DNA of 37,718 nucleotides, taken from IMG/VR virus record IMGVR_UViG_2617270964_000009. One strand, 5' to 3'. Below the pieces are notes generated by a model, which was not told the DNA's origin, did not search any database, and was given only the letters and a program-made list of their open reading frames with translations. Of this stretch, positions 15,413 through 35,497 are shown piece by piece (the stretch's first letter is position 1; every line of letters begins with the position of its first letter). This DNA comes from a virus (taxonomy: Duplodnaviria; Heunggongvirae; Uroviricota; Caudoviricetes). The position numbers and the translations under genes were made by a program.

Positions 15413-15413
15413 G

Positions 15414-16715: not shown

Positions 16716-16729
16716 GCTCTCTCCTTAAA

Positions 16730-18013: not shown

Positions 18014-18059
18014 CCTCATTCGCTGGCAATGATAAATCACCCGCCTGAAGAGAGAAAAC

Positions 18060-18518: not shown

Positions 18519-18520
18519 TG

Positions 18521-20819: not shown

Positions 20820-22411
20820 CAGTACCCCTCCAGCATGCGGGCCGCCTGACGACGACGGCGTGAGCTTGCCTTCACCGGCCCTTTGTTAATTTCACGGCTG
20901 GCGAAATACGCCAGCGCCAGTGCGATGGCTGAATCCCCGTGACGTTTACCACCATCAGCCTTTGCTTTTGAGCGTTGCTCCGGCACGCGGGGGACACCGT
21001 TCACCACCTGAACGGCCCGCAGGTCATCCAGTGTGTCTTCATCCTTTGGTAAGTCCACCAGGTTACCGTCTTCCAGTGCAGCTTTGACCGGAGGCATATG
21101 CTCCCGGTACCAGCCTTCGGTTGGCATCACCTGCTGAACCCGGCCGGAGCCGTAGCGCTGCATGGCGTATTCAGCCAGATAGGCACCATTACCACGGGCA
21201 TCAAACGCAGCACCCAGCAGACCGGGCAGGCCATCCATCAGATACCAGGTGATTTGCTCCTGCTGCCTGAACGGCACGTTACGCAACTCCAGTACGAATG
21301 GCACGCGTCGTATCAGGTTCTTCTCCTGCAACAACGGGTAGTCCACCGACAAATCCCCGCTGCGACCAAAGTCACGCCCTAGAAAAGAGCGGGCACCAGC
21401 GGGGAGCGCCTCCAGTAATGGTTTCAGATGCTCATCAAGCCAGTCCTGCGTCTCGCGGAAGCGAACTTCATCAGACAGCAGTTCATAACCTTCCTTGCAG
21501 GTCAGACGCAATACCGGCGTATCAGCGGACATGCGGGACTCTATCAGGGCTCGGGACAGCCAGGCACCGCCACCGTTGGCCGGAATACAGTCAAGCTCTT
21601 CGGATGCACCGGCACCGTAGAATTTGTACACCGACGCCATCCAGGCCTGCTCGGATGCCTCCGACCATTCCTTCCCGGTGCGCAGACAAACGCGCCGGAA
21701 CAGCCCCTCAGATACGGCTTCCCGGAAAGTGATGCGATGTACGCTGCCTCCCTGACGTCCGGCACGGATATCCCCGATAAGCGTATTGAACGGATTGTCG
21801 TCACCGTCATGGGTGGAGATAACGCGTACCTTTCCCCCCCAGATAAGCATCGCCAGCGCCGCTTTCAGCAGTTCGTCCAGTTGCTCATGGAACGCCGCTT
21901 CGTCGATAACAATAATACCCTGACGGCCACGCAGGTTAGACGGGCGGCTGGAGAGCGCAACAATACGAAAGCCGGAGTCAGGAAATTTGATGGTGTAAGT
22001 CTTGATGTGTTTGTCGTCGTCCTCTTCCCAGAATCCTTCTTCAATTTCACTGGCCGCATAGTTGAATGCCCGTGCCCACATCGCACACGCCTGAATGTAT
22101 TCGACGGTCATGTCCTGGTTATAAGCGATGTAATACACATTCATCCCGCCTGCTGGCGCAGAAGAGGCGGCGGTCAGTACGTTATCGGATGCCTCAGCCC
22201 ATGTAATACCGGTACGACGGCTCTTTTCTATCACCTTAAGCGGAGAGGTGTCTGCCACCCAGCGCTGCTGGTAAGGCAACAGAACGGGAGGGGCATCCAG
22301 CGCCGAGGTATCAGGCAAAACGGGAGCAAGGTTATTCCTCCCGTCCATGGGACTCATCCCTTCGGGGCCGCCGCCAGCGGCGTTTAAAATCACTCCGGAT
22401 GATTTTGTCAT
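20819..22411 (-). CDS. Terminase large subunit (Mu gp28-like)
   Basis: 530 aa with ATPase and nuclease-sized halves; overlaps the small-subunit gene by 4 bp. Confidence 0.8.
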   Translation of the reverse strand: MTKSSGVILNAAGGGPEGMSPMDGRNNLAPVLPDTSALDAPPVLLPYQQRWVADTSPLKVIEKSRRTGITWAEASDNVLTAASSAPAGGMNVYYIAYNQDMTVEYIQACAMWARAFNYAASEIEEGFWEEDDDKHIKTYTIKFPDSGFRIVALSSRPSNLRGRQGIIVIDEAAFHEQLDELLKAALAMLIWGGKVRVISTHDGDDNPFNTLIGDIRAGRQGGSVHRITFREAVSEGLFRRVCLRTGKEWSEASEQAWMASVYKFYGAGASEELDCIPANGGGAWLSRALIESRMSADTPVLRLTCKEGYELLSDEVRFRETQDWLDEHLKPLLEALPAGARSFLGRDFGRSGDLSVDYPLLQEKNLIRRVPFVLELRNVPFRQQEQITWYLMDGLPGLLGAAFDARGNGAYLAEYAMQRYGSGRVQQVMPTEGWYREHMPPVKAALEDGNLVDLPKDEDTLDDLRAVQVVNGVPRVPEQRSKAKADGGKRHGDSAIALALAYFASREINKGPVKASSRRRRQAARMLEGY

Positions 22412-22953
22412 GTGGCAATCCCCAGAATCTCGCGACGAAGCGCCTGTACTGCGTCGCTTGACAGTCCCCCCTTACGGGCAATTTTCTCGGCGTTGCTGGC
22501 TGCCTGCTGCGCTCTGGCCCGTACTTCAGACTGGAACTTTTTGAGGTTGACGGACGCGCGGGACAGCGTAGCCACATTCTTCGCCACCTTCGACAGCAGG
22601 GCCACGCGTTCTTTAGGATCGACTTCGCCTTCTTCCGCCTCCTGCAACTGGACAATACTCTCGAACAGCTCGGTCTGAATAAGGGCTATCACAGCCTCCG
22701 AACGCGCATCCTGATCGTCTGCTGCGCCTTCGGTCAGCATGCGGGCCGCTTCTGTTGCCGCACGGATAGCACCATAGCGGCGCTCAATCTTCTGTCCATA
22801 GCGATGGATAGCGGATTTGCTGATGACGTACCCCCGCTCACGCAGCAGGGACTCCAGCTCGTTATACCCGCTGAAGCCGGATTCAGTCAGCGCCCGTTCA
22901 AGCCAGCGGCGCACGTCTTCCGGCAGCTTTTCTATTGTGCTGCGTCTGGCCAT
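22408..22953 (-). CDS. Terminase small subunit-like protein (Mu gp27-like)
   Basis: 181-aa basic helical protein immediately upstream of the large terminase. Confidence 0.6.
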   Translation of the reverse strand: MARRSTIEKLPEDVRRWLERALTESGFSGYNELESLLRERGYVISKSAIHRYGQKIERRYGAIRAATEAARMLTEGAADDQDARSEAVIALIQTELFESIVQLQEAEEGEVDPKERVALLSKVAKNVATLSRASVNLKKFQSEVRARAQQAASNAEKIARKGGLSSDAVQALRREILGIAT

Positions 22954-23264
22954 TATTCACTCCAGTACTTTTCCGGGCGGGCAATACCCGGACCACATTC
23001 CACGGTGTATTCCACCAGGTCTACGCCGAGGCGGGTCAGGTCAGCAAACCAGTCGCCAGAAGGTTTTTTCTCCAGATCAACCATTTTACGGTCAGCCAGA
23101 TAATCCAGTTCGCGGCGCAGTTCCAGCGGTGTGGTGTCCGGGTAGATGGCACGGGACACATCCAGCAGCAGCGTCTCGCTGGCGGTGTAAGGGCGGGTCT
23201 TGTTCAGGGCAACCAGCAGACTCCAGCGCAGGGATTCGCGGCGTACCCGGGTAATATCGACCAT
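22953..23264 (-). CDS. Mu gp26-like hypothetical protein
   Basis: 103-aa ORF, translationally coupled to its neighbours; assigned by synteny. Confidence 0.45.
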   Translation of the reverse strand: MVDITRVRRESLRWSLLVALNKTRPYTASETLLLDVSRAIYPDTTPLELRRELDYLADRKMVDLEKKPSGDWFADLTRLGVDLVEYTVECGPGIARPEKYWSE

Positions 23265-23590
23265 TATTGACCTCCGGTATTGCGGTACTGCTGTACCACT
23301 TCCAGTTTGTTATAAAGCGCGTCCAGTTTGGCCTCGATGACTGTCTGGCCACGGATATAATCCTCGCGACGGACATAATTCAGCGGTAAATCCGCTTTAA
23401 ATCGCATAAATTCTTTTTCCAGCTCGCCCCAGTTGGAGGCGGACTGTTGCAGGGCCTGTTCAAGGGAGGCGAATCGTGCCGCCTGGCGTTCTTCTGTTTT
23501 ACTGAACAACCATTTGGCGAGCCCTCCCACAAACCCCATGAAGGTGAGCAGAAAACTCACCACCGTCCAGAATTCAACCTGCAGTGTCAT
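23264..23590 (-). CDS. Mu gp25-like membrane protein
   Basis: 108 aa with an N-terminal TM segment (FWTVVSFLLTFMGFVGGLAKWLF) and a coiled coil; start overlaps the Rz stop. Confidence 0.5.
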   Translation of the reverse strand: MTLQVEFWTVVSFLLTFMGFVGGLAKWLFSKTEERQAARFASLEQALQQSASNWGELEKEFMRFKADLPLNYVRREDYIRGQTVIEAKLDALYNKLEVVQQYRNTGGQ

Positions 23591-24237
23591 TTCTGTAATC
23601 CTTCCCGTTCATCCAGTAACGCGTTTATCTGGTTCCGCCAGCGACGACATTGTCCTGCGTTGTCGATGATGTTGGCGAGAACGTCACGCTGGGAGACACC
23701 CGAATCGCGTAACCGGGTGTCAGTGGTTTCAGGTTGCCCGGTCGCTGTGCCAGAGCGGGTGCCAGCGGCGGCAACTGAGTCTGAATGACCGGTGTCGACG
23801 GATGCGTTGTCATATCCGAGTGCGGCGTTGTACTGGCGCACGAAACCGCGAGTAAACACGCACTCAATGGGATGGCTCTTACCTTTTTCATCAATCCAGC
23901 GCTGTGTGACATCGTTAATTTGCCCCTGTAGTTGTTTATTCCGGCTCTCCAGTTGAGCAATCTGCTCAAGATAACCGGCTTCAGCCCGCTGCCCGGCGGC
24001 CACCTGCTCCTGATACCGTCTGGCCCAGGCCCGCAGCGCAGCATTCTCAAGCGTTGTCTGCTCCGTTTTGTACGCGTCAAATGCTGACTGCAACTGACTG
24101 AGCGCGGTATCACCGTCACGCTTTGCAGAGTCATGACCACTTCTGTATCCCATGGCATACAGGCCGACCAGAAAGGCATTGATAAGAATGGCCAGCAGAA
24201 TGCCGCGCCACGGCAGCTTTTTAACCAGATGCCACAC
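23587..24237 (-). CDS. Rz-like inner-membrane spanin (i-spanin), start taken at GTG 24237
   Basis: The GTG has a GGGGAGG Shine-Dalgarno 8 nt upstream; N-terminal TM (WRGILLAILINAFLVGLYAMGY) then a coiled-coil periplasmic region; an Rz1-like ORF is embedded in the +1 frame. Confidence 0.6.
   Translation of the reverse strand: MWHLVKKLPWRGILLAILINAFLVGLYAMGYRSGHDSAKRDGDTALSQLQSAFDAYKTEQTTLENAALRAWARRYQEQVAAGQRAEAGYLEQIAQLESRNKQLQGQINDVTQRWIDEKGKSHPIECVFTRGFVRQYNAALGYDNASVDTGHSDSVAAAGTRSGTATGQPETTDTRLRDSGVSQRDVLANIIDNAGQCRRWRNQINALLDEREGLQK
23625..23891 (-). CDS. Rz1-like outer-membrane lipoprotein spanin (o-spanin), embedded in Rz
   Basis: MKKVRAIPLSACLLAVSCAS: signal peptide with a lipobox-like AVSC; mature part is proline-rich (TPHSDMTTHPSTPVIQTQLPPLAPALAQRPGNLKPLTPGY). 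Confidence 0.55.
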   Translation of the reverse strand: MKKVRAIPLSACLLAVSCASTTPHSDMTTHPSTPVIQTQLPPLAPALAQRPGNLKPLTPGYAIRVSPSVTFSPTSSTTQDNVVAGGTR

Positions 24238-24961
24238 AACTGCTGCCTCCCCATGTGAGATATCGCGGTGCCAGTTCGCGCAGGATGCGCTGCGGATAAT
24301 GGCGGTTCTCCCGCCAGCTGGCCGCATTGCGTCCGGCATTCACCGTGGCGACATGTCCGAACCAGCGGGTGCTGTCCAGACCTTTCTGTGATGCAAGCCG
24401 CCTGTCCCGTTGTACCCAGCCCAGACCACCGTTATAGCCCGACAGTGTCATGGCCATACGCTCGCAGTCACTGGCGGCGCTGACACGCTGCCACAGCCAG
24501 CGGTCATAGCTGACCAGCGCCCGGATAGCCCATGCCGGATTAAACGGCTCACGACTGCTCAGCATCGGTATCAACTGGCTTATCCAGTCGGCAGTGGCAG
24601 GCATGAACTGCGCCAGTCCCTGAGCGCCAGCCGGCGAGATCGCATCAGGTCGCCAGCCGCTTTCCTGATGCAGTTGCGCGGCGAAATCGGCCACCGGCGC
24701 AGACAGTCCCCATTCAAGCCGGGCATTACGGATCACATCATCGCGATACTGCAGCGCAGCCTGCGGAGGTTGTGCTGCGCATGCCTGGCTGAAAAAGCCG
24801 CCACACCAGAGCAACATTGCGACAAAGAATACCCATGCCATATGAACCAGAAAGGTCCCGGCGCGGACTGACAGGCGTTCGGTTCTGATGAAGACCCGAA
24901 AGGCTTCGAAAGCCAGTTTCAGGGACATGCATACAATCCAGGTGATCTGCGGCCAGTTCAT
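24221..24961 (-). CDS. Endolysin, lytic transglycosylase (SLT-domain) type with N-terminal hydrophobic/SAR-like segment
   Basis: Contains HQESGW...GAQGLAQFMP, the SLT catalytic region with the catalytic Glu; TM-like MAWVFFVAMLLWCGGFF; ATG is 2 nt after the upstream stop. An alternative start at M41 (24841) is possible. Confidence 0.7.
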   Translation of the reverse strand: MNWPQITWIVCMSLKLAFEAFRVFIRTERLSVRAGTFLVHMAWVFFVAMLLWCGGFFSQACAAQPPQAALQYRDDVIRNARLEWGLSAPVADFAAQLHQESGWRPDAISPAGAQGLAQFMPATADWISQLIPMLSSREPFNPAWAIRALVSYDRWLWQRVSAASDCERMAMTLSGYNGGLGWVQRDRRLASQKGLDSTRWFGHVATVNAGRNAASWRENRHYPQRILRELAPRYLTWGGSSCVASG

Positions 24962-24963
24962 GA

Positions 24964-25314
24964 TTAAAGCCCCATCGCAACAGCCAGGCAGACCGCTGCA
25001 ACAATCAGTGCACGGCGGATTAACGCAGCAGAAAACACCAGGTGAAGGCCGGTCTGTACCGGGAAACGCCCTTCAGCCATCAGCCTGTCGTCATGTTTCA
25101 GGTACTGACCGGGACGGGCTTTGGGGAAGAGCGAACGGTCAAGCCAGTAACCCAGCACTGCTGCCAGCGTGATGAGTGCCAGCTTGTAGATCACAACAGG
25201 CAGCTGCTGTGGTGAGACCAGAGCGATGGTGCCCAGCAACAGCACTGAGGTCAGCAGCCAGCCGCTGAGGCGAGGTTTTTTAACAGGGGGAATGAATTTT
25301 TTCAGGTTTTTCAT
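24964..25314 (-). CDS. Holin-like membrane protein (3 predicted TM segments)
   Basis: Start chosen at ATG 25314 (MKNLKKF) with a GAGGAG Shine-Dalgarno 7 nt upstream; three hydrophobic helices; sits first in the lysis cassette. Confidence 0.5.
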   Translation of the reverse strand: MKNLKKFIPPVKKPRLSGWLLTSVLLLGTIALVSPQQLPVVIYKLALITLAAVLGYWLDRSLFPKARPGQYLKHDDRLMAEGRFPVQTGLHLVFSAALIRRALIVAAVCLAVAMGL

Positions 25315-25444
25315 GTGTGTCTCCTCGTTTGGTGGAGACAGCATCACAAATACAGGGCGCAAAGGATTTTAAAGCGCGTTAAGAGAGCCGGGGATACGGG
25401 ATGTGCAGGATAAACGATGAATTATTCACAGAGGAGAATACGAT

Positions 25445-26173
25445 ATGACGCACACACTGAATCCGGTCATCACTGTCACTGTGTCCGATCCTGTGGGCAG
25501 CGGTAAAAGTTACGTACTGGCGCGGATAGAAGAGATGGTGAAACAGGAACTCGGAAACAGCGTCATTGTCGATGCTGCTGACGTGGAGAATGAGCGCCGT
25601 ATGAATGGCGAAGATCTGACGACCTGGCAGAAGCCACGGGGTGGCACAGTGATCAGGCTGGAGGAATACACGGGACAGGGCCTGTTGTCATACGGCGAGG
25701 AGCGTATCTGTCGGACGAATGAGCTGCTGGATGTTATATGCCCCACGGGCCGGCAACCCTGGATACTGCCCGATGCACTGCATGCCACCATTGCGGCACT
25801 GATGACAGTTTACGATCAGGAGCTGCTCATGAAGGAGTTACGTAAACTCACCGGTCAGCCAACAGAATGTTGTTCGTCTCCGAAGTACGGCAAACAGGAA
25901 CACATCCCGATTAACCAGCCTCCCCGGTTCTTCGACGAATACCTTCTGACACCGGAAAATAAAGCTGAGCATGAAGAGATCAAAGCGGCGTTGTTCCGGG
26001 AAATCAGGAAGATTGCTGAAATGCAGTTGGGGGGCGGGCTGGACAGAGTGATGGCGAGAGGAGAATGGGCATCGCTGTTTGAAAGAGTTTCCCCGGAATT
26101 ACTTCCCCTCGCACTGGCTATCGGGATTATGCAGACAGCGGATAAACCTCACTTACGTTCATTAAACACGTAA
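25445..26173 (+). CDS. Hypothetical protein (242 aa) with a degenerate P-loop-like motif
   Basis: Strong RBS (GAGGAG, 7-nt spacing); N-terminal VTVSDPVGSGKSY resembles a Walker-A-like P-loop but is non-canonical; no other recognisable domain. Confidence 0.5.
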   Translation: MTHTLNPVITVTVSDPVGSGKSYVLARIEEMVKQELGNSVIVDAADVENERRMNGEDLTTWQKPRGGTVIRLEEYTGQGLLSYGEERICRTNELLDVICPTGRQPWILPDALHATIAALMTVYDQELLMKELRKLTGQPTECCSSPKYGKQEHIPINQPPRFFDEYLLTPENKAEHEEIKAALFREIRKIAEMQLGGGLDRVMARGEWASLFERVSPELLPLALAIGIMQTADKPHLRSLNT

Positions 26174-26553
26174 CGCATAATCCGGGATACGCATTCAGCG
26201 ATGACTGCATTTTCACCGGTTTTTACTGCATCCAGAAGTGACTCTTTAAATGGTACGGGCCGGGGCTGCAGAAAGGTCGGCATGGCATTGAGCAGACAGA
26301 GCGTTTTTTCCGTGAGGACGACATCAGCCGCTCCCACAGCCAGCAACTGAGAGTAACGAATATAGCTGTTATCCCGAAGCCATATCAGCGTATCAATAAA
26401 ACACCGGCACTTTTTCTGGTCGTGATCAACCTGGTCCGGGATATCGAAAAAACCAGAATAAATCAAAACCTGAGGTGCCGGATGCGTGTTCAGTAATCGG
26501 CAGAATATTTTGCCGGTGAGTACATAAAAATCATCATTTAAGGAGTGCATCAT
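26149..26553 (-). CDS. Hypothetical protein (134 aa)
   Basis: Starts ATGATG with GGGGA upstream; its 3' end overlaps the 242-aa ORF by 25 bp (convergent) and its start codon overlaps the 71-aa ORF start (divergent). Confidence 0.35.
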   Translation of the reverse strand: MMHSLNDDFYVLTGKIFCRLLNTHPAPQVLIYSGFFDIPDQVDHDQKKCRCFIDTLIWLRDNSYIRYSQLLAVGAADVVLTEKTLCLLNAMPTFLQPRPVPFKESLLDAVKTGENAVIAECVSRIMRYVFNERK

Positions 26554-26767
26554 GAATCCCCGATTAACGTTAACAGAACATCAGCGCCGTGCTGAAGCAG
26601 TGAACAATGTTCTGGAAGATATTATCCGGTTATACCGCGGAGAACTGAGTGTCTGTCGTGCCGCTTTTCATTTTCAGGGAATACAAAAGCAGTTTGATAC
26701 TTCTGTTTTTGCAGAAGGTATTACTTATGCCCTGGACCGGATAAGGTCAGAAAATCGCCCCGGATAA
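26552..26767 (+). CDS. Hypothetical small protein (71 aa)
   Basis: AAGGAG Shine-Dalgarno 6 nt upstream of the ATG; no recognisable motif. Confidence 0.4.
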   Translation: MNPRLTLTEHQRRAEAVNNVLEDIIRLYRGELSVCRAAFHFQGIQKQFDTSVFAEGITYALDRIRSENRPG

Positions 26768-26823
26768 TCCCTAAACCACATTAACAGAAATCCCGCCATC
26801 CCTGCCGCATCATGAAAGAACGA

Positions 26824-26851
26824 CCAGCCCGGCACCCGAAAGCCGGGCTGG
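26824..26851. other. GC-rich hairpin (ccagcccggc-acccgaaa-gccgggctgg) between the 71-aa ORF and dam
   Basis: Perfect 10-bp stem, 8-nt loop; no U-tract on the plus strand, so more likely an RNA structure or regulatory element than a canonical terminator. Confidence 0.35.
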
Positions 26852-26957
26852 TCATCGCCCCACAGGAATGCGCTGTGAGCCGACCAAGGTTCAGTCAGTC
26901 TCGCGAGACCTGACCAGACTGCCATATTTTTTAATAATTGTAAAAGGCTTACAGATT

Positions 26958-27725
26958 ATGAAAATGCAGACATTACCCATCGTGCCGTGGATTGGTGGCA
27001 AACGCCGCCTTGCAAAACACATTCTGCCGCTGTTTCCGGCGCATGAATGTTATGTGGAGCCGTTTTGTGGGGCAGCAGCGCTCTATTTTCTTAAGACACC
27101 CGGCAAGATCGAAGTCATCAATGATATCAACGGTGAACTGGTGAATCTGTACCGGGTGGTAAAGCATCACCTGGAAGAATTTGTCCGCCAGTTCAAATGG
27201 GCGCTGGTCAGCCGTCAGATCTACAAATGGCTGCAGATCACCCCGGAAGAAACACTGACGGATATCCAGCGTGCGGCACGGTTCTACTACCTCCAGAAGC
27301 AGGCGTTTGGTGGCAAGGTGGCAGAGCATAGTTTCGGCACCTCCACCACATCCCCGCCACGCTTCAACCTGCTGCGTATTGAGGAAGAGCTCTCAGCGGC
27401 ACACCTGCGACTTTCCAGAACGGTGATAGAACACATGGACTGGCAACAGTGCATTGAGCGTTATGACCGTCCGCACACGCTGTTCTACTGCGACCCACCG
27501 TACCTGGGTACGGAAGGCTATGGTGTGGATTTTCCTGAAGGGAACTACTCGCGGTTGGCAGAGCTGGCCCGTTGCATCAGAGGAAAGATGATTATATCGG
27601 TCAACGATATCCCGGAAATGCGGCAGGTTTTTAACGGTCTGAACATTCACTGTGTGAAGGTCAACTACAGTCTTGCAGGAAAGGGAACACTACGGCGCGA
27701 ACTTATTGTAAGTAATTTAGAGTAG
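26958..27725 (+). CDS. dam: DNA adenine methyltransferase, Dam/D12 class (N6-adenine)
   Basis: N-terminal PIVPWIGGKRRLAKHILPLFP, the AdoMet motif EPFCGAAALYF and the catalytic DPPY tetrapeptide (FYCDPPYLGTEGYG). Confidence 0.85.
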   Translation: MKMQTLPIVPWIGGKRRLAKHILPLFPAHECYVEPFCGAAALYFLKTPGKIEVINDINGELVNLYRVVKHHLEEFVRQFKWALVSRQIYKWLQITPEETLTDIQRAARFYYLQKQAFGGKVAEHSFGTSTTSPPRFNLLRIEEELSAAHLRLSRTVIEHMDWQQCIERYDRPHTLFYCDPPYLGTEGYGVDFPEGNYSRLAELARCIRGKMIISVNDIPEMRQVFNGLNIHCVKVNYSLAGKGTLRRELIVSNLE

Positions 27726-27750
27726 GCTCAGAAGGAGGTAAGTAGTCTTG

Positions 27751-27782
27751 CATAACAATGCACCTGATGGTGCATTGTTATG
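27751..27782. terminator. Perfect 14-bp stem / 4-nt loop hairpin between convergent dam and the RexB-like gene
   Basis: cataacaatgcacc-tgat-ggtgcattgttatg; overlaps the stop codon of the minus-strand gene and is followed by a moderately T-rich stretch on the plus strand. Confidence 0.4.
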
Positions 27783-28215
27783 ATATCACTTTGATTATAT
27801 TGAATAATCGCCTACCTGTTTGTAATAAACACAACATAGACATAACAACAAGCCCAATGAGGATAGCGGCTACAATCTCTTGATGCTTACTTTGCAGCAT
27901 CAACCCAATCAAACATGTCAACACCAACACTAGCAAAACTAAGCAAGTGTAGAATGCATCGGTCATCAGACGCTTGTAATGTCCGGTTTTTTGCATGTTT
28001 TTAAGTAACGGTTTATCAAGCAATGATGCAAGTAGTGCAATTGCTGTAATAATAAAACCTAACAACGTTGCAAAGACACTGGACAATGTAGTCATGAAGT
28101 TTGGGATTGCGGCTACTGGCATATGGGGCAACTTGAACCAGTAGAGAAAACCAATCCCACATCCAATCAATAAACTAAGCAATAGGGCCGAGTTCATCTT
28201 CTCCAATATATGCAT
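27778..28215 (-). CDS. RexB-like four-TM membrane protein (about 145 aa)
   Basis: Start taken at ATG 28215 (GGGAGAG Shine-Dalgarno, 5-nt spacing); four hydrophobic helices; the TLSSVFATLLGFIITAIALL segment resembles lambda RexB TM2 as recalled from memory; last gene of the repressor operon; low GC. Confidence 0.55.
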   Translation of the reverse strand: MHILEKMNSALLLSLLIGCGIGFLYWFKLPHMPVAAIPNFMTTLSSVFATLLGFIITAIALLASLLDKPLLKNMQKTGHYKRLMTDAFYTCLVLLVLVLTCLIGLMLQSKHQEIVAAILIGLVVMSMLCLLQTGRRLFNIIKVIS

Positions 28216-29068
28216 TGATACTCTCCCGGTTTTCAGCATACGCAGTATCGATTAGACGGTACATGGTTTCGGCTGGAGGGAAACGAGCGTCAGTAACTAC
28301 CGATTGATAGGACGAAATACGCTCGGCAATCAAATCCACAGGATGGACAACACCATCAGCATCGAACACATCAATTACAGCCTTTTTCGCCCCAAACTCG
28401 ACTAACTCTTGCATAGCAAATTTTATATTCTGCTTAAGCCTACCATCACTATCGCCACGGCGAGTATTAATCCCCATTACAATTTGCATTGTATCGGCAC
28501 CTGCATCACCAAGCAGTTGTAGTGTCTTTTGACTGAAATCAGTATCAGGGTAAAACTCAGGATTACGGGGGCGAGGAATCGTCAACTGGATTTTTTTCAT
28601 TTTGACATCTCCTCTCATAAGCCTAGCGATTGCATCTTTTTCCAGCAAAGGTGCGGGCTTAACCTTTGAACCAAAGATAGTTGAAAGAAATGCACTAAAA
28701 CGGCTTATACCACAAGCCATATGATTATAGTGCCAACCTATAACATTGATTCGAGGATAGAATACAAAGAAATTGCGCTCAATGATCCCTTCATCCTTGG
28801 CAAGTGGAATAGGGGTAGACTGTTTCCCTGGTGCACCTTTATCCGGAATGTTCGAGTTGCGAAATTTTCTCAACTCTCCACTAAAAGAACCATCCGCGCG
28901 TTTTTTCAACCCCCAAATTTCTCTAGTAAAACCCTCATGGTTTGAAGAGGAAGGGCTCTGTTTATCAATTACAGATTGAAAAGCATCTCCGAGATTTGCC
29001 AGCTGATCTGTGGCCTTAAACGATAGCTGATGAAACTCAATACGATAATTTCTCACATCACCACTCAT
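28175..29068 (-). CDS. RexA-like protein (297 aa), partner of the membrane protein
   Basis: AAGGA Shine-Dalgarno; sits directly downstream of the CI-like repressor in the same orientation; size near lambda RexA (279 aa); low GC. Homology is unverified. Confidence 0.5.
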   Translation of the reverse strand: MSGDVRNYRIEFHQLSFKATDQLANLGDAFQSVIDKQSPSSSNHEGFTREIWGLKKRADGSFSGELRKFRNSNIPDKGAPGKQSTPIPLAKDEGIIERNFFVFYPRINVIGWHYNHMACGISRFSAFLSTIFGSKVKPAPLLEKDAIARLMRGDVKMKKIQLTIPRPRNPEFYPDTDFSQKTLQLLGDAGADTMQIVMGINTRRGDSDGRLKQNIKFAMQELVEFGAKKAVIDVFDADGVVHPVDLIAERISSYQSVVTDARFPPAETMYRLIDTAYAENRESINAYIGEDELGPIA

Positions 29069-29139
29069 ACGATTAATCCTTAACGCGGAAAGTTCAGATG
29101 GTTAGTGCAAACAGCACATCCTACTGTTTAAATCAGCGC

Positions 29140-29170
29140 ATATAACGAAGAGGTTTGATAACCTTGTCAA
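29140..29170 (-). promoter_or_regulatory. Candidate sigma70 promoter for the rexA/rexB-like genes (TTGACA-19 nt-TTATAT on the minus strand)
   Basis: Found in the 122-bp gap between the repressor stop and the rexA-like start; the spacer is 19 nt, which is long. Confidence 0.25.
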
Positions 29171-29190
29171 TTGTTCTCATTGGGAATAGA

Positions 29191-29607
29191 TTAACCCACA
29201 TTTTTTAACCGCTCAATCGTTGCGGATAATTCCTTCAGTTGTTTTTCCATCTCGATCACTCGCTGTTTTTCCGCAGCGCCTCGCAGAAGATCGTTACGAA
29301 CCTCGGGGTCTAGCTGCTTTAAAAGCTCAAGCATAGTAAGGTCAGCTTGGCTAAACTGCACTTGCGTCGGAGTTACGTCTACTTCTTTTGATAAACCTTG
29401 TTTTCTACCTGTTAGCAACCAATCTAAAGAAACCCCCTTTTCTTCTGCGATGTTTATGCAAATTGCATAAGGCACAGAATCACGCTTCCTCCAACTTGCA
29501 AGTGTCTGCCTATTGACGTTAAGCGCTCTTGCCAACTCACTATCATTCTCTGCTTGGAATAGTGACATTAACCGGGAAAGCACAGCGTTAACATCTTTGT
29601 TATTCAT
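29191..29607 (-). CDS. CI-like prophage repressor (HTH; no peptidase domain)
   Basis: SELARALNVNRQTLASWRKRDSVPYAICINIAEEKGVSLDWLLTG is the phage CI-repressor HTH signature; coiled-coil C-terminus; divergent from the ner-like gene. ATG at 29607 preferred over the track's upstream start at 29622. Confidence 0.75.
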   Translation of the reverse strand: MNNKDVNAVLSRLMSLFQAENDSELARALNVNRQTLASWRKRDSVPYAICINIAEEKGVSLDWLLTGRKQGLSKEVDVTPTQVQFSQADLTMLELLKQLDPEVRNDLLRGAAEKQRVIEMEKQLKELSATIERLKNVG

Positions 29608-29637
29608 TTTGCGTAATTCCACTTGATTTATTTATTT

Positions 29638-29657
29638 TGAATAAGTACATTTATTCA
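29638..29657. promoter_or_regulatory. Operator-like palindrome in the repressor/ner divergent control region
   Basis: tgaataa-gtacat-ttattca (perfect 7-bp arms); AGTACAT recurs 19 bp downstream at 29663-29669; the whole region is AT-rich. Confidence 0.3.
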
Positions 29658-29695
29658 TATTGAGTACATGATAACCCAACTGGAACTATCCGCAT

Positions 29696-29920
29696 ATGAA
29701 TAAACAACAAGTTCGGGCACGACTAGTTGAACGAGGCAGTAGCTTGCGCCAGTTCGCGCTTAACGCAGGCTATGAGCCACGAACAGTCACACAGGCAGTC
29801 AGTCGCTGGGCTGGTAAAAGTGAACTACCACGTGGTCGTTTGACTTATCGGATTTTGCGAGATCTATCGGTTGCAATAGGTAAAGAAGTTACCCCCGGTA
29901 TCCTTAAGGAGGTGTCATGA
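29696..29920 (+). CDS. ner: Ner-like DNA-binding protein (Cro analogue of Mu-like phages)
   Basis: 74 aa; SLRQFALNAGYEPRTVTQAVSRWAG matches the Ner family pattern; first gene of the rightward early operon, divergent from the repressor. Confidence 0.65.
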   Translation: MNKQQVRARLVERGSSLRQFALNAGYEPRTVTQAVSRWAGKSELPRGRLTYRILRDLSVAIGKEVTPGILKEVS

Positions 29921-30225
29921 ATAAACCAAATACATCAAGCGCAGGTACCCGTATTTTGCGTGTTCTTAAGGCGTTACGTGGCCACGCTCTGAACGGTATC
30001 TCCAACGGTGAACTGGCGGCAGCACTGCACGAGTCACCAGCAAACATTAATCGGGCACTCAACACCCTCATTGAAGAAGGGCTGGCCCTGAAACTGGAGA
30101 ATGGACGTTTTGCACCGGGCATCCAGTTACTGCAGATCGCCATGGCTCACAGTAACGAGATGGCACGAGCGCAGGATCGTATTAACGAAATCAACCAACG
30201 TGTCATTTCAGGTAGTCGTTTATAA
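29917..30225 (+). CDS. Putative winged-helix DNA-binding protein (102 aa)
   Basis: AAGGAGG Shine-Dalgarno; start overlaps the ner stop; GISNGELAAALHESPANINRALNTLIEEGLA looks like an HTH. Confidence 0.45.
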   Translation: MNKPNTSSAGTRILRVLKALRGHALNGISNGELAAALHESPANINRALNTLIEEGLALKLENGRFAPGIQLLQIAMAHSNEMARAQDRINEINQRVISGSRL

Positions 30226-30235: not shown

Positions 30236-31147
30236 ATGGGACGTACCAAATCACCAATGTCCACTGATCTGAATGCTGAGGTGCCGCTGTCTGATGATCT
30301 CAACATCAGTCTTAATACCATGGCACAACACCGCGTGGAGATCATGCAGCAGTTCGGCGATGGTCTGCCTTATGAACGTGATCGCATTGTTCACGAAGCA
30401 CGCTTTTATATGGCACAAAGTGCTGAGGCCATGCTAGAGGCAGGTAAACGACTGATAATACTGAAAGAAAATGAACCACATGGTGATTTCATAAATATTG
30501 TCGAGTCTGAATTATCAATGTCAAAGCGTACTGCACAGGTAATGATGCAGGCATCAATAAAATATTTATCACCACAACTTGAGTCAAAAGCGCAGACGTT
30601 TGCGCTTTTAGGAAAAGCCAAATTATTCGAGTTAATGACGGAAGACGATGAAAACCTTGCCGAACTGGCTGATGGTGGCACTGTTGCCGGCCTGACGCTT
30701 GACGACGTTGATCGCATGTCAGTACGCGAACTTCGCCAGGCCCTGCGCGAAGCGCGCGAAACCAACGCAGCACAACAGCGCGTACTCGCCGATAAAAATG
30801 AAAAAATTGATTCTCTCTCTACCAGACTGGAAAAGAAATCCCGTATTCAGCCGCCTGAGCCTGATGAGGAGGTTAAGAAGCTGCGGGCGGAAGTGACAGC
30901 ATTAGCGGTTGAGGCGGAATCTGCTATCGCCGTCCGACTGTCCAGCGCTTTTGAGACACTGTGCGCATATTGTGCTGAAAACATGATTGATACCCCCAGA
31001 GACTTCATGGCAGGCCTGGTCTGTCAACTGGAAAGCACAGCGCGTAGCCTGCGCTCCACATTTGACCTGCCGGACGAGCCAACAGGCAATGCAGCGCCTT
31101 CATGGCTGACTGAGCCGACGCCACAGATTAACGGGCTGGAGGCATAA
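30236..31147 (+). CDS. Hypothetical early protein (303 aa), acidic with coiled coil
   Basis: AGGAG Shine-Dalgarno; immediately upstream of the transposase; no recognisable catalytic motif. Confidence 0.45.
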   Translation: MGRTKSPMSTDLNAEVPLSDDLNISLNTMAQHRVEIMQQFGDGLPYERDRIVHEARFYMAQSAEAMLEAGKRLIILKENEPHGDFINIVESELSMSKRTAQVMMQASIKYLSPQLESKAQTFALLGKAKLFELMTEDDENLAELADGGTVAGLTLDDVDRMSVRELRQALREARETNAAQQRVLADKNEKIDSLSTRLEKKSRIQPPEPDEEVKKLRAEVTALAVEAESAIAVRLSSAFETLCAYCAENMIDTPRDFMAGLVCQLESTARSLRSTFDLPDEPTGNAAPSWLTEPTPQINGLEA

Positions 31148-31150
31148 CCA

Positions 31151-32920
31151 ATGAATGCTGCCCTGACTGAACGACTGGTTTATGTCGCCCGCGCGGCACG
31201 TGACGCGGGGCATGGTAAACGCGGTGCAATATACGACGCTGCCTGTGCTGAACTTGGCATGTCCCGCGCCACTCTGCTGCGCAGGCTGAAGGAGGTCTCT
31301 GTGACTGATAAACGCAAAAAACGCGCCGATGCCGGGCGCAGCGCCCTGACCCGCGACGAAGCCGCGCTGATATCTGCCACACTGCGTGAGGCCACCCGCA
31401 AGAACGGTAAGCGTCTCTATTCCATCGCGGATGCAGTGGAAACCCTGCGGGCTAACGGCTTTATCTCCGCAGGCAGAACAGATGAAACCACCGGTGAGTT
31501 TTTCCCGTTGTCCGAAGATGCCATCAGCCGTGCCCTGCGTAACTATGGCCTGCACCCGGAACAACTGGATGCCCCTGCGCCGCATACCGAAGTGGCCAGT
31601 CTGCATCCCAATCATGTCTGGCAGATTGATGCCTCGCTCTGCACGCTTTACTACCTGAGCAATGGACACAAAGGGCTGCAGGTGATGGACAGCGCGAAAT
31701 TCTACAAGAACAAGCCCGCTAACCTTGCCCGTATCGCCAGTGACCGCGTGTGGAGTTATGAGATTACCGACCATGCCAGCGGCTGGATTTACGTTGAGTA
31801 TGTGACGGGTGCGGAATCCGGTGAGAACCTGTGTTCTGTGCTTATCAACGCCATGCAGGAGCGTGGCGGCGCAGACGTGCTGCACGGCGTGCCAAAAATA
31901 CTCTATCTCGACCCCGGCTCGGCAAACACCGCGGGTATGACGAAAAACATGTGCCGCTCACTGGGCATTGACCTGATAGCGCACAAGCCGCATAACGCCC
32001 GCGCCACCGGACAGGTGGAAAAGGCGCGAGACATTATCGAACGCAAGCTGGAGCCGGGTCTGAAGTTCCGGCCGGTTCACAGTCTGGAAGAACTCAACGC
32101 GCTGGCCGCGAAATGGCGCAGCCACTTTAACGCCACGGCTGTTCACAGCCGCCACGGTAAAACCCGCACGGATATCTGGCTGAAGATTACTACTGAGCAG
32201 CTGAAAAAAGCGCCTTCCGTTGAGGTATGTCGTGAACTGGCTGTGGCGGCACCAGAACTCCGCAAAGTCACGCCAAAACTTCGTGTCTCGTTCCGGGGCA
32301 CTGAATTTGACGTATCAACGGTACCGGGCGTACTGGTCGGTGAAAAACTGATGATTACCCGTAACCCGTGGCGCAGCGATGTGGCACAGGTGGTTCTGAC
32401 CGGTGAGGACGGCCACGAGACGTTCTTCCTGGTCGAAGAGGTCAGAAAGAACGAGTTTGGCTTTGCTGAAGGCGCGGCGGTATTTGGCGAAAGTTACAAA
32501 GCCCTGCCGGAAACACCGGCGCAGACGGCGGCAAAAGAAACTGAAGCGCTGGTCACCGGTACAGACAACGCCACAGATGCAGCTGTCGCACGCAAGGCGA
32601 AGGCGCTGCCGTTCGGCGGGCGGCTTGACCCGTATAAACATATTGATGACGCCACACTTCCGGCCTATATGCCGAAGCGCGGTCAGGCCTCTGACGTACG
32701 CGGGCCGCGCACTGAACAACGTCCCATGACTCATGTGGAGGCCGCGAAAGCCCTGCGCGATAAGTTCAGCGCCGACGGCCTTACCTGGACGCCGGAACAT
32801 TACCGCCAGTTAACGGCACAGTACCCGGACGGCGTACCGGAAGCCGCACTGGATGAAGTCATGGCCACGCTGACCACACCGGCCCGCAGCAGTGTTATCA
32901 GCATTGTTAACGGCAACTGA
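31151..32920 (+). CDS. DDE transposase (Mu A / TnsB / rve-superfamily)
   Basis: Candidate DDE triad: D in VWQIDAS, D in ILYLDPGSAN, E about 35 aa later in ATGQVEKARD; followed by an AAA+ ATPase gene as in MuA-MuB; GGAGG Shine-Dalgarno. Confidence 0.75.
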   Translation: MNAALTERLVYVARAARDAGHGKRGAIYDAACAELGMSRATLLRRLKEVSVTDKRKKRADAGRSALTRDEAALISATLREATRKNGKRLYSIADAVETLRANGFISAGRTDETTGEFFPLSEDAISRALRNYGLHPEQLDAPAPHTEVASLHPNHVWQIDASLCTLYYLSNGHKGLQVMDSAKFYKNKPANLARIASDRVWSYEITDHASGWIYVEYVTGAESGENLCSVLINAMQERGGADVLHGVPKILYLDPGSANTAGMTKNMCRSLGIDLIAHKPHNARATGQVEKARDIIERKLEPGLKFRPVHSLEELNALAAKWRSHFNATAVHSRHGKTRTDIWLKITTEQLKKAPSVEVCRELAVAAPELRKVTPKLRVSFRGTEFDVSTVPGVLVGEKLMITRNPWRSDVAQVVLTGEDGHETFFLVEEVRKNEFGFAEGAAVFGESYKALPETPAQTAAKETEALVTGTDNATDAAVARKAKALPFGGRLDPYKHIDDATLPAYMPKRGQASDVRGPRTEQRPMTHVEAAKALRDKFSADGLTWTPEHYRQLTAQYPDGVPEAALDEVMATLTTPARSSVISIVNGN

Positions 32921-32930
32921 GGAGGGAAAC

Positions 32931-34097
32931 ATGCTGGTACTGAAGCAGCAACTGAAAGAGGCCCGTATTCCACAGGCGGTGGTGGCGAGAGCTGTCGATG
33001 TTTCTGAGGCCACGCTGGCCCAGATTGTGAATCATAACGCGTGGCCCCGCACCAGCCCCGGAGAAGTGCGCCGGCGTCTTGCGTCCTGGCTGGAAAGTCA
33101 GGGGATTGATACAACGAAGAGTTTTGATGCTGTACAGGGCGCGGCCACGCCCCGTACAGCGGGTACCACAGATAAAACGAGCCTCAGTGAGGAAGAGAAT
33201 ATGTTACTCAAAAAACAGGTGTTATTTCCAGCAACCAAAAAAGCGTTTGGTCTTTTCCGTGACCCGTTCGCCGACGAAGCCATGCAGGGTTCTGATGATG
33301 TGTTCACCACCCCGGATATTCGCTACGTGCGTGAGGCGTTGTACCAGACAGCCCGTCATGGTGGGTTTATGGCCGTCATCGGTGAGTCCGGTGCGGGTAA
33401 ATCCACGCTGCGCCGCGACCTGACTGAACGTATCAACCGCGAGAATGCGCCGGTAATTGTTATCGAGCCATACATCATCGCTATGGAAGACAACGATGTG
33501 AAAGGGAAAACCCTGAAGGCAGCAGCGATTGCCGAAGCCATTATCAGTACCATCGCACCACTGGAAAGCATCAGACGCAGTCAGGACGCCCGCTTTCGCC
33601 AGTTGCATCGCGTCCTGAAAGACAGCAGCCAGGCGGGGTTCAGCCACGTTCTGGTGATTGAGGAGGCCCACAGTCTGCCCATTCCGACACTGAAACACCT
33701 CAAACGCTTTTTTGAGCTGGAGTCCGGTTTCAAAAAACTGCTGTCCATCGTGCTGATTGGCCAGCCGGAACTGGCGACAAAACTGTCTGAACGCAATATG
33801 GAAGTCCGTGAAGTCGTTCAGCGCTGTGAGGTGGTCGAACTTCTGCCTCTGGACAATAACCTTGAAGAGTTTCTGACGTTCAAACTGCAACGGGCCGGTA
33901 AACAACTGACGGACATTATGGACGCCAGCGCAGTGGATGCCATACGTGCCCGCCTGAGCAATCCGGGAAGTCATCGTAAAAATATGGTCAGCCTGCTGTA
34001 TCCGCTGGCCGTCAGTAACCTGGTAATAGCCGCCATGAATCTGGCCGCTGAAATCGGGGTTCCACAGGTCAACGCTGACGTTGTCAAAGGGGTTTAA
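32931..34097 (+). CDS. Transposition ATPase (Mu B analogue; TniB/ExeA-type AAA+)
   Basis: Walker A in VIGESGAGKSTL and Walker-B-like VLVIEEAH; start at ATG 32931 with a GGAGGG Shine-Dalgarno. Confidence 0.75.
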   Translation: MLVLKQQLKEARIPQAVVARAVDVSEATLAQIVNHNAWPRTSPGEVRRRLASWLESQGIDTTKSFDAVQGAATPRTAGTTDKTSLSEEENMLLKKQVLFPATKKAFGLFRDPFADEAMQGSDDVFTTPDIRYVREALYQTARHGGFMAVIGESGAGKSTLRRDLTERINRENAPVIVIEPYIIAMEDNDVKGKTLKAAAIAEAIISTIAPLESIRRSQDARFRQLHRVLKDSSQAGFSHVLVIEEAHSLPIPTLKHLKRFFELESGFKKLLSIVLIGQPELATKLSERNMEVREVVQRCEVVELLPLDNNLEEFLTFKLQRAGKQLTDIMDASAVDAIRARLSNPGSHRKNMVSLLYPLAVSNLVIAAMNLAAEIGVPQVNADVVKGV

Positions 34098-34099: not shown

Positions 34100-34369
34100 A
34101 TGAAATCCACCACAGGTATCAACCAGCAAATCAGCAAAGTGCAGTCAGCCATTATGGCGCTTAAGGCGACGAACACGGATGTACAAAGCATCACCATCAG
34201 GGGTAACAAACCTGTCATCCGCGTTTCCCGGAGTGCGCATTGCATGCGCATGCTTGAGCAGGGAAAGGCCTGTTATCTGTATACCGGTCATGACCACAGG
34301 GGACATTTCCGTCAGGGCGTTTTCGAACTGCACGGCTGTCGCGTCGTGTGGCCGGAATCTTTGTGGTAA
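34100..34369 (+). CDS. Hypothetical early protein (89 aa)
   Basis: Good RBS; translationally coupled to the upstream ATPase; no recognisable motif. Confidence 0.4.
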   Translation: MKSTTGINQQISKVQSAIMALKATNTDVQSITIRGNKPVIRVSRSAHCMRMLEQGKACYLYTGHDHRGHFRQGVFELHGCRVVWPESLW

Positions 34370-34396
34370 TCAGCACAACAGGAGGAGTCATAAAAT

Positions 34397-34927: not shown

Positions 34928-35024
34928 ACACACCACGTTAATTATTTAATAAAAACATTTTCTTTTTTATTCCGGCGTCAGCGCCGTGGGCTTCTGCACG
35001 CCGGAAACAGAGGAGAATTAAATT

Positions 35025-35488: not shown

Positions 35489-35497
35489 GGGCGCGGC

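What the first reader, a model, noticed from the sequence alone, without database searches (positions are those of the whole stretch)
25315..29695. Late and early Mu-like modules meet head-to-head, which is not Mu-colinear
In Mu all genes except c run one way (c <- | ner A B ... mor C lys head tail G gin ->). Here the complete late module, gin included, is on the minus strand while the early module is on the plus strand, and the two diverge from a 4.4-kb central region carrying cargo, dam, the rex-like pair and the repressor. Either this is one transposable phage with a divergent genome organisation, or two Mu-like elements abut and the left one has lost its early region. I could not see Mu-type ends at the junction.
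Basis: inference. Interest (0 to 1): 0.55.

Follow-up and report, generated by a model that had tools for sequence, protein, structure and literature searches.

The report
BcepMu-type transposable prophage, divergent layout
The head-to-head meeting of late and early genes is real, but it is the normal, long-known genome layout of BcepMu/B3-type transposable phages, and the window is one intact prophage of that kind that is common in E. coli.

Summary
Observation confirmed. Late genes (1-25314) lie on the minus strand and early genes (29696-37718) on the plus strand. They diverge from a 4.4-kb region holding three unknown ORFs, dam, a two-gene pair and a CI-type repressor.

This is one transposable phage.
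- In four E. coli genomes the whole 37.0-38.5-kb element lies between 6-bp target duplications, with 5'-TG...CA-3' ends. In three of them it splits a single host gene.
- The window stops 78 bp and 162 bp short of those ends, which is why no ends were seen.
- No end-type site pairs occur in the central region.

The layout is not new. 34 of 52 proteins match phage BcepMu in strict colinear order and with the same relative strands, and Pseudomonas phage B3 is arranged the same way. The literature describes BcepMu as two opposed gene clusters with lysogeny control at the interface.
- The transposase is the Tn552-like rve type, not MuA.
- About 640 of 5426 complete E. coli genomes carry relatives, all with this junction but with variable central cargo.

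The parts
1..573 (-). Gin-type serine DNA invertase. This is the last gene before the element's invertase-side terminus, which lies 78 bp outside the window.
   Evidence: Pfam Resolvase + HTH_7. 76% identical to Mu Gin by tblastn. Position relative to the terminus.
574..1738 (+). Invertible-segment-like region. It holds an alternative tail-fibre C-terminus (645-1109) and a tail-fibre assembly protein (1082-1522) on the opposite strand. One gix-like site lies at 630-649.
   Evidence: Pfam Gp53-like_C and Caudo_TAP. Sequence read. Only one copy of the site was found.
1739..25314 (-). Late module: tail fibre, P2-like baseplate and tail, tape measure, sheath and tube, Mu-like head genes, TerL and TerS, and the lysis cassette ending with the holin (24964-25314).
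   Evidence: Pfam. 28 consecutive proteins are colinear with BcepMu gp52 back to gp21.
25315..25444 (.). Divergent intergenic region upstream of the holin. Inferred to hold the late (lysis/morphogenesis) promoter.
   Evidence: Sequence. The same position as the region upstream of BcepMu gp21. The promoter itself is inferred; the sigma-70 scan found none.
25445..26767 (.). Three small cargo ORFs of unknown function: 242 aa (+), 134 aa (-) and 71 aa (+).
   Evidence: PHROGs 3787, 2266 and 4490, all of unknown function. No Pfam or PADLOC hit. Replaced by other genes in some relatives.
26868..27725 (+). Dam-type N6-adenine DNA methyltransferase. RefSeq relatives start at window position 26958.
   Evidence: Pfam MethyltransfD12 at 1e-29. 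PADLOC MTase_II at 1e-112. RefSeq annotation in L004.
27751..27782 (.). Perfect 14-bp-stem hairpin between the convergent dam gene and the 4-TM gene. Probably a bidirectional terminator.
   Evidence: the repeat finder I2. The function is inferred.
27778..28239 (-). Membrane protein of 145-153 aa with four hydrophobic segments. It is the partner of the RexA-fold protein and is RexB-like in size, topology and position.
   Evidence: Hydropathy. BLASTP against lambda RexB gives E 0.47, colinear. hhalign probability is 2%. A 144/145-aa gene follows the DUF6731 gene in other mobile contexts, and overlaps it there too.
28175..29068 (-). RexA-fold protein of 297 aa. Its relatives are annotated DUF6731.
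29191..29622 (-). CI-type prophage repressor, the positional equivalent of BcepMu gp17 and B3 ORF18.
   Evidence: Pfam Phage_CI_repr at 1.2e-17. PHROG transcriptional repressor. Synteny.
29623..29695 (.). Operator and early-promoter region between the repressor and the early operon. It contains a repeated AGTACAT motif at 29644 and 29663.
   Evidence: Sequence. The function is inferred from position.
29696..30225 (+). First two early genes: a small HTH protein (Cro/Ner-like, in the position of BcepMu gp16) and a winged-HTH regulator (homologue of BcepMu gp12).
   Evidence: Pfam and PHROG. tblastn to BcepMu gp12.
30236..34097 (+). Transposition genes: a DUF3102 protein (homologue of BcepMu gp10), an rve DDE transposase TnpA (31151-32920), and an AAA+ ExeA-like TnpB (32931-34097).
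   Evidence: Pfam rve, AAA_22 and DUF3102. 68% identity to BcepMu gp09 and 59% to gp08.
34100..37718 (+). Remainder of the early operon: Gam (34397-34927), small ORFs, DUF2786/DUF7168, GemA (36908-37357) and a Mor-family activator (37329-37718). The Mor-side terminus lies 162 bp beyond the window.
   Evidence: Pfam Phage_Mu_Gam, GemA and Mor. BcepMu gp02 and gp01 homologues. Terminus position.

Best explanation
The window is a single, apparently intact BcepMu-type transposable myovirus prophage of E. coli, cut just inside both termini. It is related to Escherichia phage PhiKM and Klebsiella phage KP12.

The genome is built as two opposed transcription blocks around a central immunity and cargo region.
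- A CI-type repressor (29191-29622, leftward) is inferred to bind operators in the 73-bp gap at 29623-29695. This would shut off the rightward early operon.
- The early operon reads: Cro/Ner-like HTH, wHTH regulator, DUF3102, Tn552-like rve transposase, AAA+ TnpB, Gam, further small genes, GemA, Mor.
- On induction, the Mor-family activator encoded at the far end of the early operon is inferred to act in trans on a late promoter upstream of the holin (25315-25444). That promoter would drive leftward transcription of lysis, terminase, head, tail and tail-fibre genes.

Activation is in trans, and transposition needs only the two inverted termini. Each terminus has the form 5'-TGA-N8-GMGATAWWT-N13-GMGATAWWT. 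The orientation of the early block relative to the late block is therefore free, and this lineage, like BcepMu and B3, has it opposite to Mu.

The space between repressor and holin is a variable slot for accessory genes. In this copy it holds dam, three unknown ORFs and a RexA-fold/4-TM pair.

Shown here: gene content, strands, synteny, termini, 6-bp target duplications, absence of internal ends, prevalence, and cargo variability. Inferred: the operators, the late promoter, the Mor-dependent cascade, and replicative transposition.
For: 1. Strands and functions.
2. Colinearity with BcepMu. 34 of 52 proteins match in strict order. Late genes on '-' map to BcepMu '+', and early genes on '+' map to BcepMu '-'. 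BcepMu annotation: genes 1-16 leftward, gp17 repressor and later genes rightward.
3. B3 has the same layout.
4. PMC2771037 states that BcepMu has bottom-strand genes 1-13, top-strand genes 17-52, lysogeny control at the interface, a Tn552/IS1604-type transposase and CA termini.
5. Single-element proof. In L004, L006, L007 and L008 the 36,960-38,490-bp element is flanked by the 6-bp duplications GCTATG, GGTTAT, ATTTTC and CCTTCA. Its ends read TGATGCGCC...TCTAATCA. It splits wcaJ, zntB and a reverse-transcriptase gene, and in L007 it lies between flgA and flgB.
6. The termini align with those of BcepMu and B3. Exact paired end sites occur only at the two termini of the full element.
7. The Mor-end query matched 640 of 5426 genomes. 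The junction query matched 636 genomes, and all listed rows but three span it from end to end in a single place; only 23 genomes share this cargo. Cargo variants.
8. Phage records PhiKM (NCBI taxonomy Bcepmuvirus) and KP12 are colinear with the window.
Against: - The window lacks the termini, so ends and duplications were read in near-identical prophages of other genomes, not in the source copy.
- No experiment here shows induction, transposition or packaging.
- No sigma-70-like promoter was detected in either intergenic region. Mor-dependent promoters would not be expected to match that scan.
- The repressor and the Cro/Ner-like protein have no detectable sequence similarity to BcepMu gp17 and gp16. 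Their equivalence is positional.
- One relative (L005) lacks a target duplication.
Confidence: 0.95

Rival explanations
1. Two Mu-like elements abut head-to-head. The left one has kept only its late genes and the right one only its early genes.
For: Only the divergent orientation, the low-GC central region, and the absence of visible termini in the window.
Against: - One 6-bp target duplication brackets the whole element in 4 of 4 simple insertions, and single host genes are split by it.
- No end-type site pairs occur in the central region.
- There is exactly one complement of early and late genes, colinear with BcepMu and B3.
- The same junction is present in 636 genomes and in phage records.
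Confidence: 0.01
2. An assembly artefact or a recent inversion specific to this genome created the head-to-head junction.
For: None beyond the departure from Mu's gene order. Recombination between prophage copies does occur: L005 lacks a duplication and has non-adjacent host flanks.
Against: - The junction is spanned contiguously in hundreds of independently assembled complete genomes.
- It is also present in the PhiKM and KP12 records, in BcepMu, phiE255 and B3, and in about 60 Pseudomonas phage records whose transposase points toward the near end.
Confidence: 0.01
3. A defective prophage remnant that keeps the BcepMu layout but no longer functions as a phage.
For: - Only one gix-like site was found for the invertase.
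- Some relatives carry IS insertions or frameshifted tape-measure genes.
- No induction data exist for this copy.
Against: - All core ORFs in the window are open and full length relative to BcepMu.
- PhiKM, deposited as a phage record, is 96-98% identical.
- Up to 3 places (matching sites) per genome and diverse insertion sites with fresh duplications indicate recent transposition.
Confidence: 0.1

Closest known systems
Burkholderia phage BcepMu and phiE255 (Bcepmuvirus; Summer et al. 2004, as summarised in PMC2771037 and PMC2920897)
   Same: - Two opposed gene clusters with the repressor at the interface.
- Tn552-like rve transposase (68% identity), ExeA-like TnpB (59%), and Mor and GemA at the far end of the early cluster.
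- Holin, SLT lysin and spanin, Mu-like terminase and head, P2-like tail. 34 of 52 proteins are colinear.
- TG...CA termini with two GMGATAWWT sites per end.
   Different: - Enterobacterial host.
- No nucleotide-level match by megablast.
- Different repressor and Cro/Ner-like proteins, and different central cargo (dam, the RexA-fold pair).
- It has a Gin-type invertase with alternative tail-fibre genes, which BcepMu lacks.
- It lacks the BcepMu gp53 acyltransferase.
Escherichia phage PhiKM (PQ738613) and Klebsiella phage KP12 clone KP12_2 (OM835952)
   Same: Near-identical (96-98%) and about 86% identical respectively. Both are colinear with the window, including the head-to-head junction.
   Different: - PhiKM covers only about 80% of the window. 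It lacks this repressor and the RexA-fold pair, and its record is circularly permuted and partial.
- KP12 has other genes between dam and the repressor.
- Both records lack defined termini.
Pseudomonas phage B3 (Beetrevirus) and relatives
   Same: - The same divergent layout: ORFs 1-17 (Mor, GemA ... TnpB, TnpA ... HTH) run leftward, and the repressor, lysis and head genes run rightward.
- Transposase 56% identical.
- Similar terminal sequence.
   Different: B3's genus is described as a siphovirus with a different tail module. No tail comparison was made here, because only the first 20 kb of B3 was fetched.
Escherichia phage Mu (Muvirus)
   Same: Transposable temperate myovirus. It shares Gin (76%), TerL, portal, F, G, Gam, GemA and Mor homologues, TG...CA ends, and insertion at diverse chromosomal sites.
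   Different: - Mu's early and late genes run the same way, with only c opposed.
- Mu uses MuA and MuB, which have no homologues here, and its known 5-bp duplication contrasts with the 6 bp found here.
- Mu has its own tail genes rather than P2-like ones, and separate Mor and C activators.
- Only 9 of 52 window proteins match Mu.
Lambda cI-rexA-rexB immunity-region exclusion system (RexA structure 8TWQ; PMC11077077)
   Same: A soluble protein of about 290 aa with the RexA fold, followed by a 4-TM protein of about 145 aa, lies directly downstream of and co-oriented with a CI-type repressor.
   Different: - No sequence-level membership: Pfam and PADLOC give no Rex hit, and hhalign probability is 2-3%.
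- The cassette also occurs away from repressors, in a lambdoid late region and in a CP4-57-like island.
- No exclusion phenotype is known.

Membership tests
BcepMu-like transposable phages (Bcepmuvirus type) | Transposase of the Tn552/IS1604-like rve (DDE) family rather than MuA, with an ExeA-like AAA+ partner | tested here: met
   Pfam finds only rve in the 589-aa protein and AAA_22 in the next gene. They are 68% and 59% identical to BcepMu gp09 and gp08. There is no match to MuA or MuB.
BcepMu-like transposable phages (Bcepmuvirus type) | Two opposed gene clusters (early/transposition versus lysis/morphogenesis) with lysogeny control at their interface | tested here: met
   Strand map. Colinear with the BcepMu annotation. 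Feature as described in PMC2771037.
BcepMu-like transposable phages (Bcepmuvirus type) | 5'-TG...CA-3' termini carrying paired imperfect repeats of about 23 bp in inverted orientation | tested here: met
   Read in near-identical prophages (L004-L008), because the window lacks the ends. The form is TGA-N8-GMGATAWWT-N13-GMGATAWWT at both ends, and it aligns with the BcepMu and B3 termini. Repeats as described in PMC2920897.
BcepMu-like transposable phages (Bcepmuvirus type) | Insertion at many chromosomal sites with a short target-site duplication | tested here: met
   Four different sites, each with a perfect 6-bp duplication. 640 genomes carry it at scattered coordinates, with up to 3 places per genome.
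BcepMu-like transposable phages (Bcepmuvirus type) | Mu-like terminase and head module joined to a P2-like contractile tail module | tested here: met
   Pfam Phage_Mu_Gp27, Portal_Mu, Phage_Mu_F and sheath domains. Tail proteins are colinear with BcepMu gp39-gp52, which are annotated as P2 homologues.
BcepMu-like transposable phages (Bcepmuvirus type) | Replicative transposition, and random host DNA at the ends of packaged virion DNA | not testable with these tools
   This needs virion DNA sequencing. The PhiKM and KP12 records are partial and carry no defined ends.
BcepMu-like transposable phages (Bcepmuvirus type) | Genus-level nucleotide relatedness to BcepMu (ICTV-style criterion; my own knowledge) | tested here: inconclusive
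   Megablast of the window found no BcepMu match. Protein identities run from 28% to 76%. NCBI taxonomy nevertheless files the 96-98%-identical PhiKM under Bcepmuvirus. No formal intergenomic distance was computed.
Mu (Muvirus) | MuA-type transposase and MuB | tested here: not met
   No tblastn hit of any window protein to Mu A or B. No Mu-transposase Pfam domains.
Mu (Muvirus) | Unidirectional gene order c<-|ner A B ... mor C lys head tail G gin | tested here: not met
   The early block is inverted relative to the late block.
Mu (Muvirus) | 5-bp target-site duplication | tested here: not met
   The duplication is 6 bp in 4 of 4 insertions. The 5-bp figure for Mu is from established knowledge.
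Lambda RexAB-type exclusion system | RexA-fold soluble component | tested here: met
   [not shown]
Lambda RexAB-type exclusion system | RexB homologue (4-TM membrane partner) | tested here: inconclusive
   Four hydrophobic segments and a similar length. BLASTP E 0.47 and hhalign probability 2%. No Pfam RexB hit.
Lambda RexAB-type exclusion system | Sequence-family membership (Pfam or PADLOC Rex models) | tested here: not met
   No Rex hit in Pfam or PADLOC. hhalign against RexA gives probability 3%. Relatives are filed as DUF6731.
Lambda RexAB-type exclusion system | Exclusion of superinfecting phage, or modulation of the lysis-lysogeny switch | not testable with these tools
   This requires plaque assays on lysogens or on cloned genes.

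The most novel reading that the evidence does not exclude
The DUF6731 (RexA-fold) protein and its overlapping 4-TM partner form a previously unrecognised, highly diverged Rex-like exclusion or abortive-infection cassette. The cassette moves between transposable phages, lambdoid prophages and genomic islands. In this prophage it has landed in the classic cI-rexA-rexB position, and it may also bias the repressor switch. The divergent genome layout itself has no novel reading left.
Probability: 0.4. Interest if true: 0.35.

Novelty: already known. Interest (0 to 1): 0.12.

Why it matters
For the finding as stated, it matters only as a correction. 'Not Mu-colinear' does not signal a chimera or a new genome plan. 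It is the signature of the BcepMu/B3 lineage of transposable phages, which use a Tn552-like transposase and make 6-bp duplications.

Useful by-products:
- Exact termini and the end-site consensus for a prophage family present in about 12% of complete E. coli genomes.
- Evidence that the repressor-to-holin interval is a swap site for immunity and accessory genes.
- A structural link between DUF6731 and lambda RexA that could guide a defence-system test.

Tried and rejected
- Searched the window for end-type motifs, first GMGATAAATGVCA and then GMGATAWWT pairs. Nothing was found in the central region. A cluster of near-matches at 607-654 is largely explained by a gix-like site next to the invertase.
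- Looked for the second gix site with the Mu gix consensus, with the local site allowing 3 mismatches, and with a local alignment. It was not found.
- Sigma-70 promoter and terminator scan of 25.2-29.8 kb gave counts below the shuffle means (5 vs 6.8 promoter-like, 3 vs 4.3 terminator-like sites) and no site in either key intergenic region.
- PADLOC and Pfam on the central ORFs identified only the methyltransferase and the repressor.
- BLASTP and hhalign of the pair against lambda RexA and RexB were not significant. Only the structure comparison linked the 297-aa protein to RexA.
- The primary papers of Summer et al. 2004 (BcepMu) and Braid et al. 2004 (B3) are not held. I used secondary descriptions and the GenBank annotations instead.
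- One paper search with loose terms returned irrelevant hits, and one find call failed on a term that was too short.
- 'DUF6731' occurs in no held paper.
- A regex search for the E. coli termini in PhiKM and KP12 found none. Both records are partial, and PhiKM's is also circularly permuted.


Full report
**What is in the window.**
The ORF list and the Pfam/PHROG scans show a complete temperate transposable myovirus.
- 1 to 25314, all on the minus strand: a Gin-type invertase, tail-fibre genes, a P2-like baseplate and tail, tape measure, sheath and tube, Mu-like head genes (G, F, portal, TerL, gp27-type TerS), and a lysis cassette (spanin-like protein, SLT lysin, holin).
- 29696 to 37718, all on the plus strand: a small HTH protein, a winged-HTH regulator, a DUF3102 protein, an rve-domain transposase, an AAA+ partner, Gam, several small ORFs, a DUF2786/DUF7168 protein, GemA and a Mor-family activator.
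- 25315 to 29695, the 4,381 bp between them: three ORFs of unknown function, a Dam-type methyltransferase, a 4-TM protein, a 297-aa protein and a CI-type repressor, on mixed strands. GC falls to 42-49% here, against 54-59% elsewhere.

The invertase is 76% identical to Mu Gin.

**One element or two.**
The window begins exactly at the invertase stop codon and ends at the Mor stop codon, so it cannot contain the termini. I fetched near-identical prophages with their flanks from complete E. coli genomes.
- In four of them the whole element (36,960 to 38,490 bp) sits at a different chromosomal site: within wcaJ, within zntB, between flgA and flgB, and within a reverse-transcriptase gene.
- In each it begins 5'-TGATGCGCCGCGCGATAAATG and ends CATTTATCTCAAGTCTAATCA-3'.
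- Each is flanked by a perfect 6-bp direct duplication: GCTATG, GGTTAT, ATTTTC and CCTTCA.
- The window starts 78 bp inside one terminus and stops 162 bp short of the other.
- A single duplication bracketing both blocks, with the two halves of one host gene on either side in three of the four cases, is what a single transposition event leaves. It is incompatible with two abutting insertions.

A fifth copy (L005) has no duplication, and its host flanks are not adjacent. That genome holds two copies, so recombination between copies is the likely cause. I did not follow this up.

**No internal ends.**
- Both termini carry two copies of GMGATAWWT at about positions 12 and 35 from the end. The BcepMu and B3 termini have the same architecture.
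- In the full element, exact paired sites occur only at the two termini. The window has no exact site at all.
- The central region has only seven single one-mismatch sites, roughly what base-composition shuffles of the whole window predict for 4.4 kb, and no pairs.

**Comparison with known phages.**
- Megablast finds Escherichia phage PhiKM (96-98% identical; NCBI taxonomy Bcepmuvirus) and Klebsiella phage KP12 clone 2 (about 86%). Both are colinear with the window across the junction.
- By tblastn, 34 of the 52 window proteins match BcepMu in strict order. Late proteins on the window's minus strand map to BcepMu's plus strand (gp52 back to gp21). Early proteins on the plus strand map to BcepMu's minus strand (gp12, gp10, gp09, gp08, gp02, gp01).
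- The BcepMu record shows genes 1-16 leftward, and gp17 (repressor) and all later genes rightward.
- PMC2771037 states this directly. BcepMu has two clusters, with genes 1 to 13 on the bottom strand and 17 to 52 on the top strand. Lysogeny control lies at the interface, followed by the lysis cassette. The transposase is a Tn552/IS1604-family enzyme and the termini end in CA.
- PMC2920897 describes the 23-bp terminal repeats of phiE255 and BcepMu.
- Pseudomonas phage B3 has the same divergent plan, and its transposase is 56% identical.
- Only 9 window proteins match Mu. Both blocks map to Mu's plus strand, so the early block is inverted relative to Mu. There is no MuA or MuB homologue.

The layout is therefore real, not Mu-like, and already well described for this lineage.

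**Not an artefact, and the centre is a swap site.**
- A query spanning lysin to DUF3102 matches 636 of 5426 complete E. coli genomes. In nearly all listed rows it is spanned from end to end in one place. Only 23 genomes share this central cargo.
- Variants keep the frame of holin, cargo, repressor, Cro/Ner-like HTH, wHTH and DUF3102. They exchange the repressor together with the small HTH gene, and they exchange the genes just downstream of the repressor.
- Downstream of the repressor, the alternatives seen are: nothing; a 328-aa plus 193-aa (L011) or 328-aa plus 203-aa (L012) pair; a 401-aa protein plus a nucleoid-associated protein; and the pair seen here.

**How it most likely works.**
- The repressor, transcribed leftward, would bind the 73-bp gap at 29623-29695. 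That gap contains a repeated AGTACAT motif. Binding would hold the rightward early operon off.
- After induction the early operon would supply the transposase, TnpB and Gam for replicative transposition, and at its far end the Mor-family activator.
- Mor would then act in trans on a promoter upstream of the holin (25315-25444) to drive the leftward late operon.
- Neither trans-activation nor the two inverted termini depend on the relative orientation of the blocks, so the divergent plan works as well as Mu's.
- These regulatory steps are inferred from homology and position, not shown. The sigma-70 scan found no promoter in either gap, which is uninformative for activator-dependent promoters.

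**The 'rex-like pair'.**
- The 297-aa protein has no Pfam or PADLOC hit, but its relatives are filed as DUF6731.
- The overlapping downstream gene encodes a 145-153-aa protein with four hydrophobic segments, like RexB. Sequence comparisons with RexB are not significant.
- The pair sits directly downstream of the CI-type repressor, as rexA and rexB do in lambda.
- The same two-gene cassette also occurs in a lambdoid prophage next to an antiterminator Q gene, and in a CP4-57-like island. It therefore behaves as a mobile accessory module.
PMC11077077 already reports rex-like genes beside CI/Cro in other temperate phages, so this would be a new member of a known kind.

**Verdict.**
The 'one phage with a divergent organisation' reading is right. 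The 'two elements' and 'artefact' readings are refuted. The organisation is the known BcepMu/B3 type, so novelty is 'already known' and interest is low.

The only mildly new item is the DUF6731 to RexA structural link, which is a side result and not part of the finding.

Noticed in passing
[not shown]
   Followed up: partly
L005 (NZ_CP107182.1) element ends at 3469 and 43880: This prophage copy has intact termini but no target-site duplication, and its host flanks are not adjacent (aroA side versus yehI side). An ISEc23 insertion disrupts its invertase gene. The genome has two copies, which suggests a chromosomal rearrangement by recombination between them.
   Followed up: no
window 574-1738 and 1739-3331: A Mu G-segment-like region: an alternative tail-fibre C-terminus and an assembly gene on the opposite strand, next to a Gin homologue. 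Only one gix-like site was found (630-649, CCCAAACCAACGTTTATCTC). The tail-fibre region differs in length and content among otherwise near-identical prophages (L004-L008).
   Followed up: partly
window 25315-29695 versus L008, L010, L011, L012: The interval between holin and repressor is a swap site. Only 23 of 636 E. coli genomes with this prophage family share this cargo. At least four repressor sizes (118, 135, 138 and 153 aa in L010, L008, L004-L007 and L011/L012), paired with at least three Cro/Ner-like gene forms, and several alternative gene pairs downstream of the repressor, occur in relatives.
   Followed up: partly
L001 (PhiKM, PQ738613) 29100-29910: PhiKM, deposited as a phage, has no annotated repressor between its Cro/Ner-like gene and dam. 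About 570 bp there hold only a 41-aa ORF. It may be a repressor-deleted or clear-plaque derivative, or it may simply be under-annotated.
   Followed up: no
window 27751-27782: A perfect 14-bp-stem, 4-nt-loop hairpin lies exactly between the convergent dam gene and the 4-TM gene and overlaps the latter's stop codon. It is probably a bidirectional terminator. The T-run-based terminator scan did not pick it up.
   Followed up: no
window 29623-29695: The AGTACAT motif is repeated 19 bp apart in the repressor/early-operon intergenic region. These repeats are candidate operator half-sites.
   Followed up: no
table (E. coli genomes): Relatives of this prophage occur in 640 of 5426 complete E. coli genomes, with up to three places per genome and one place on a plasmid.
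   Followed up: no
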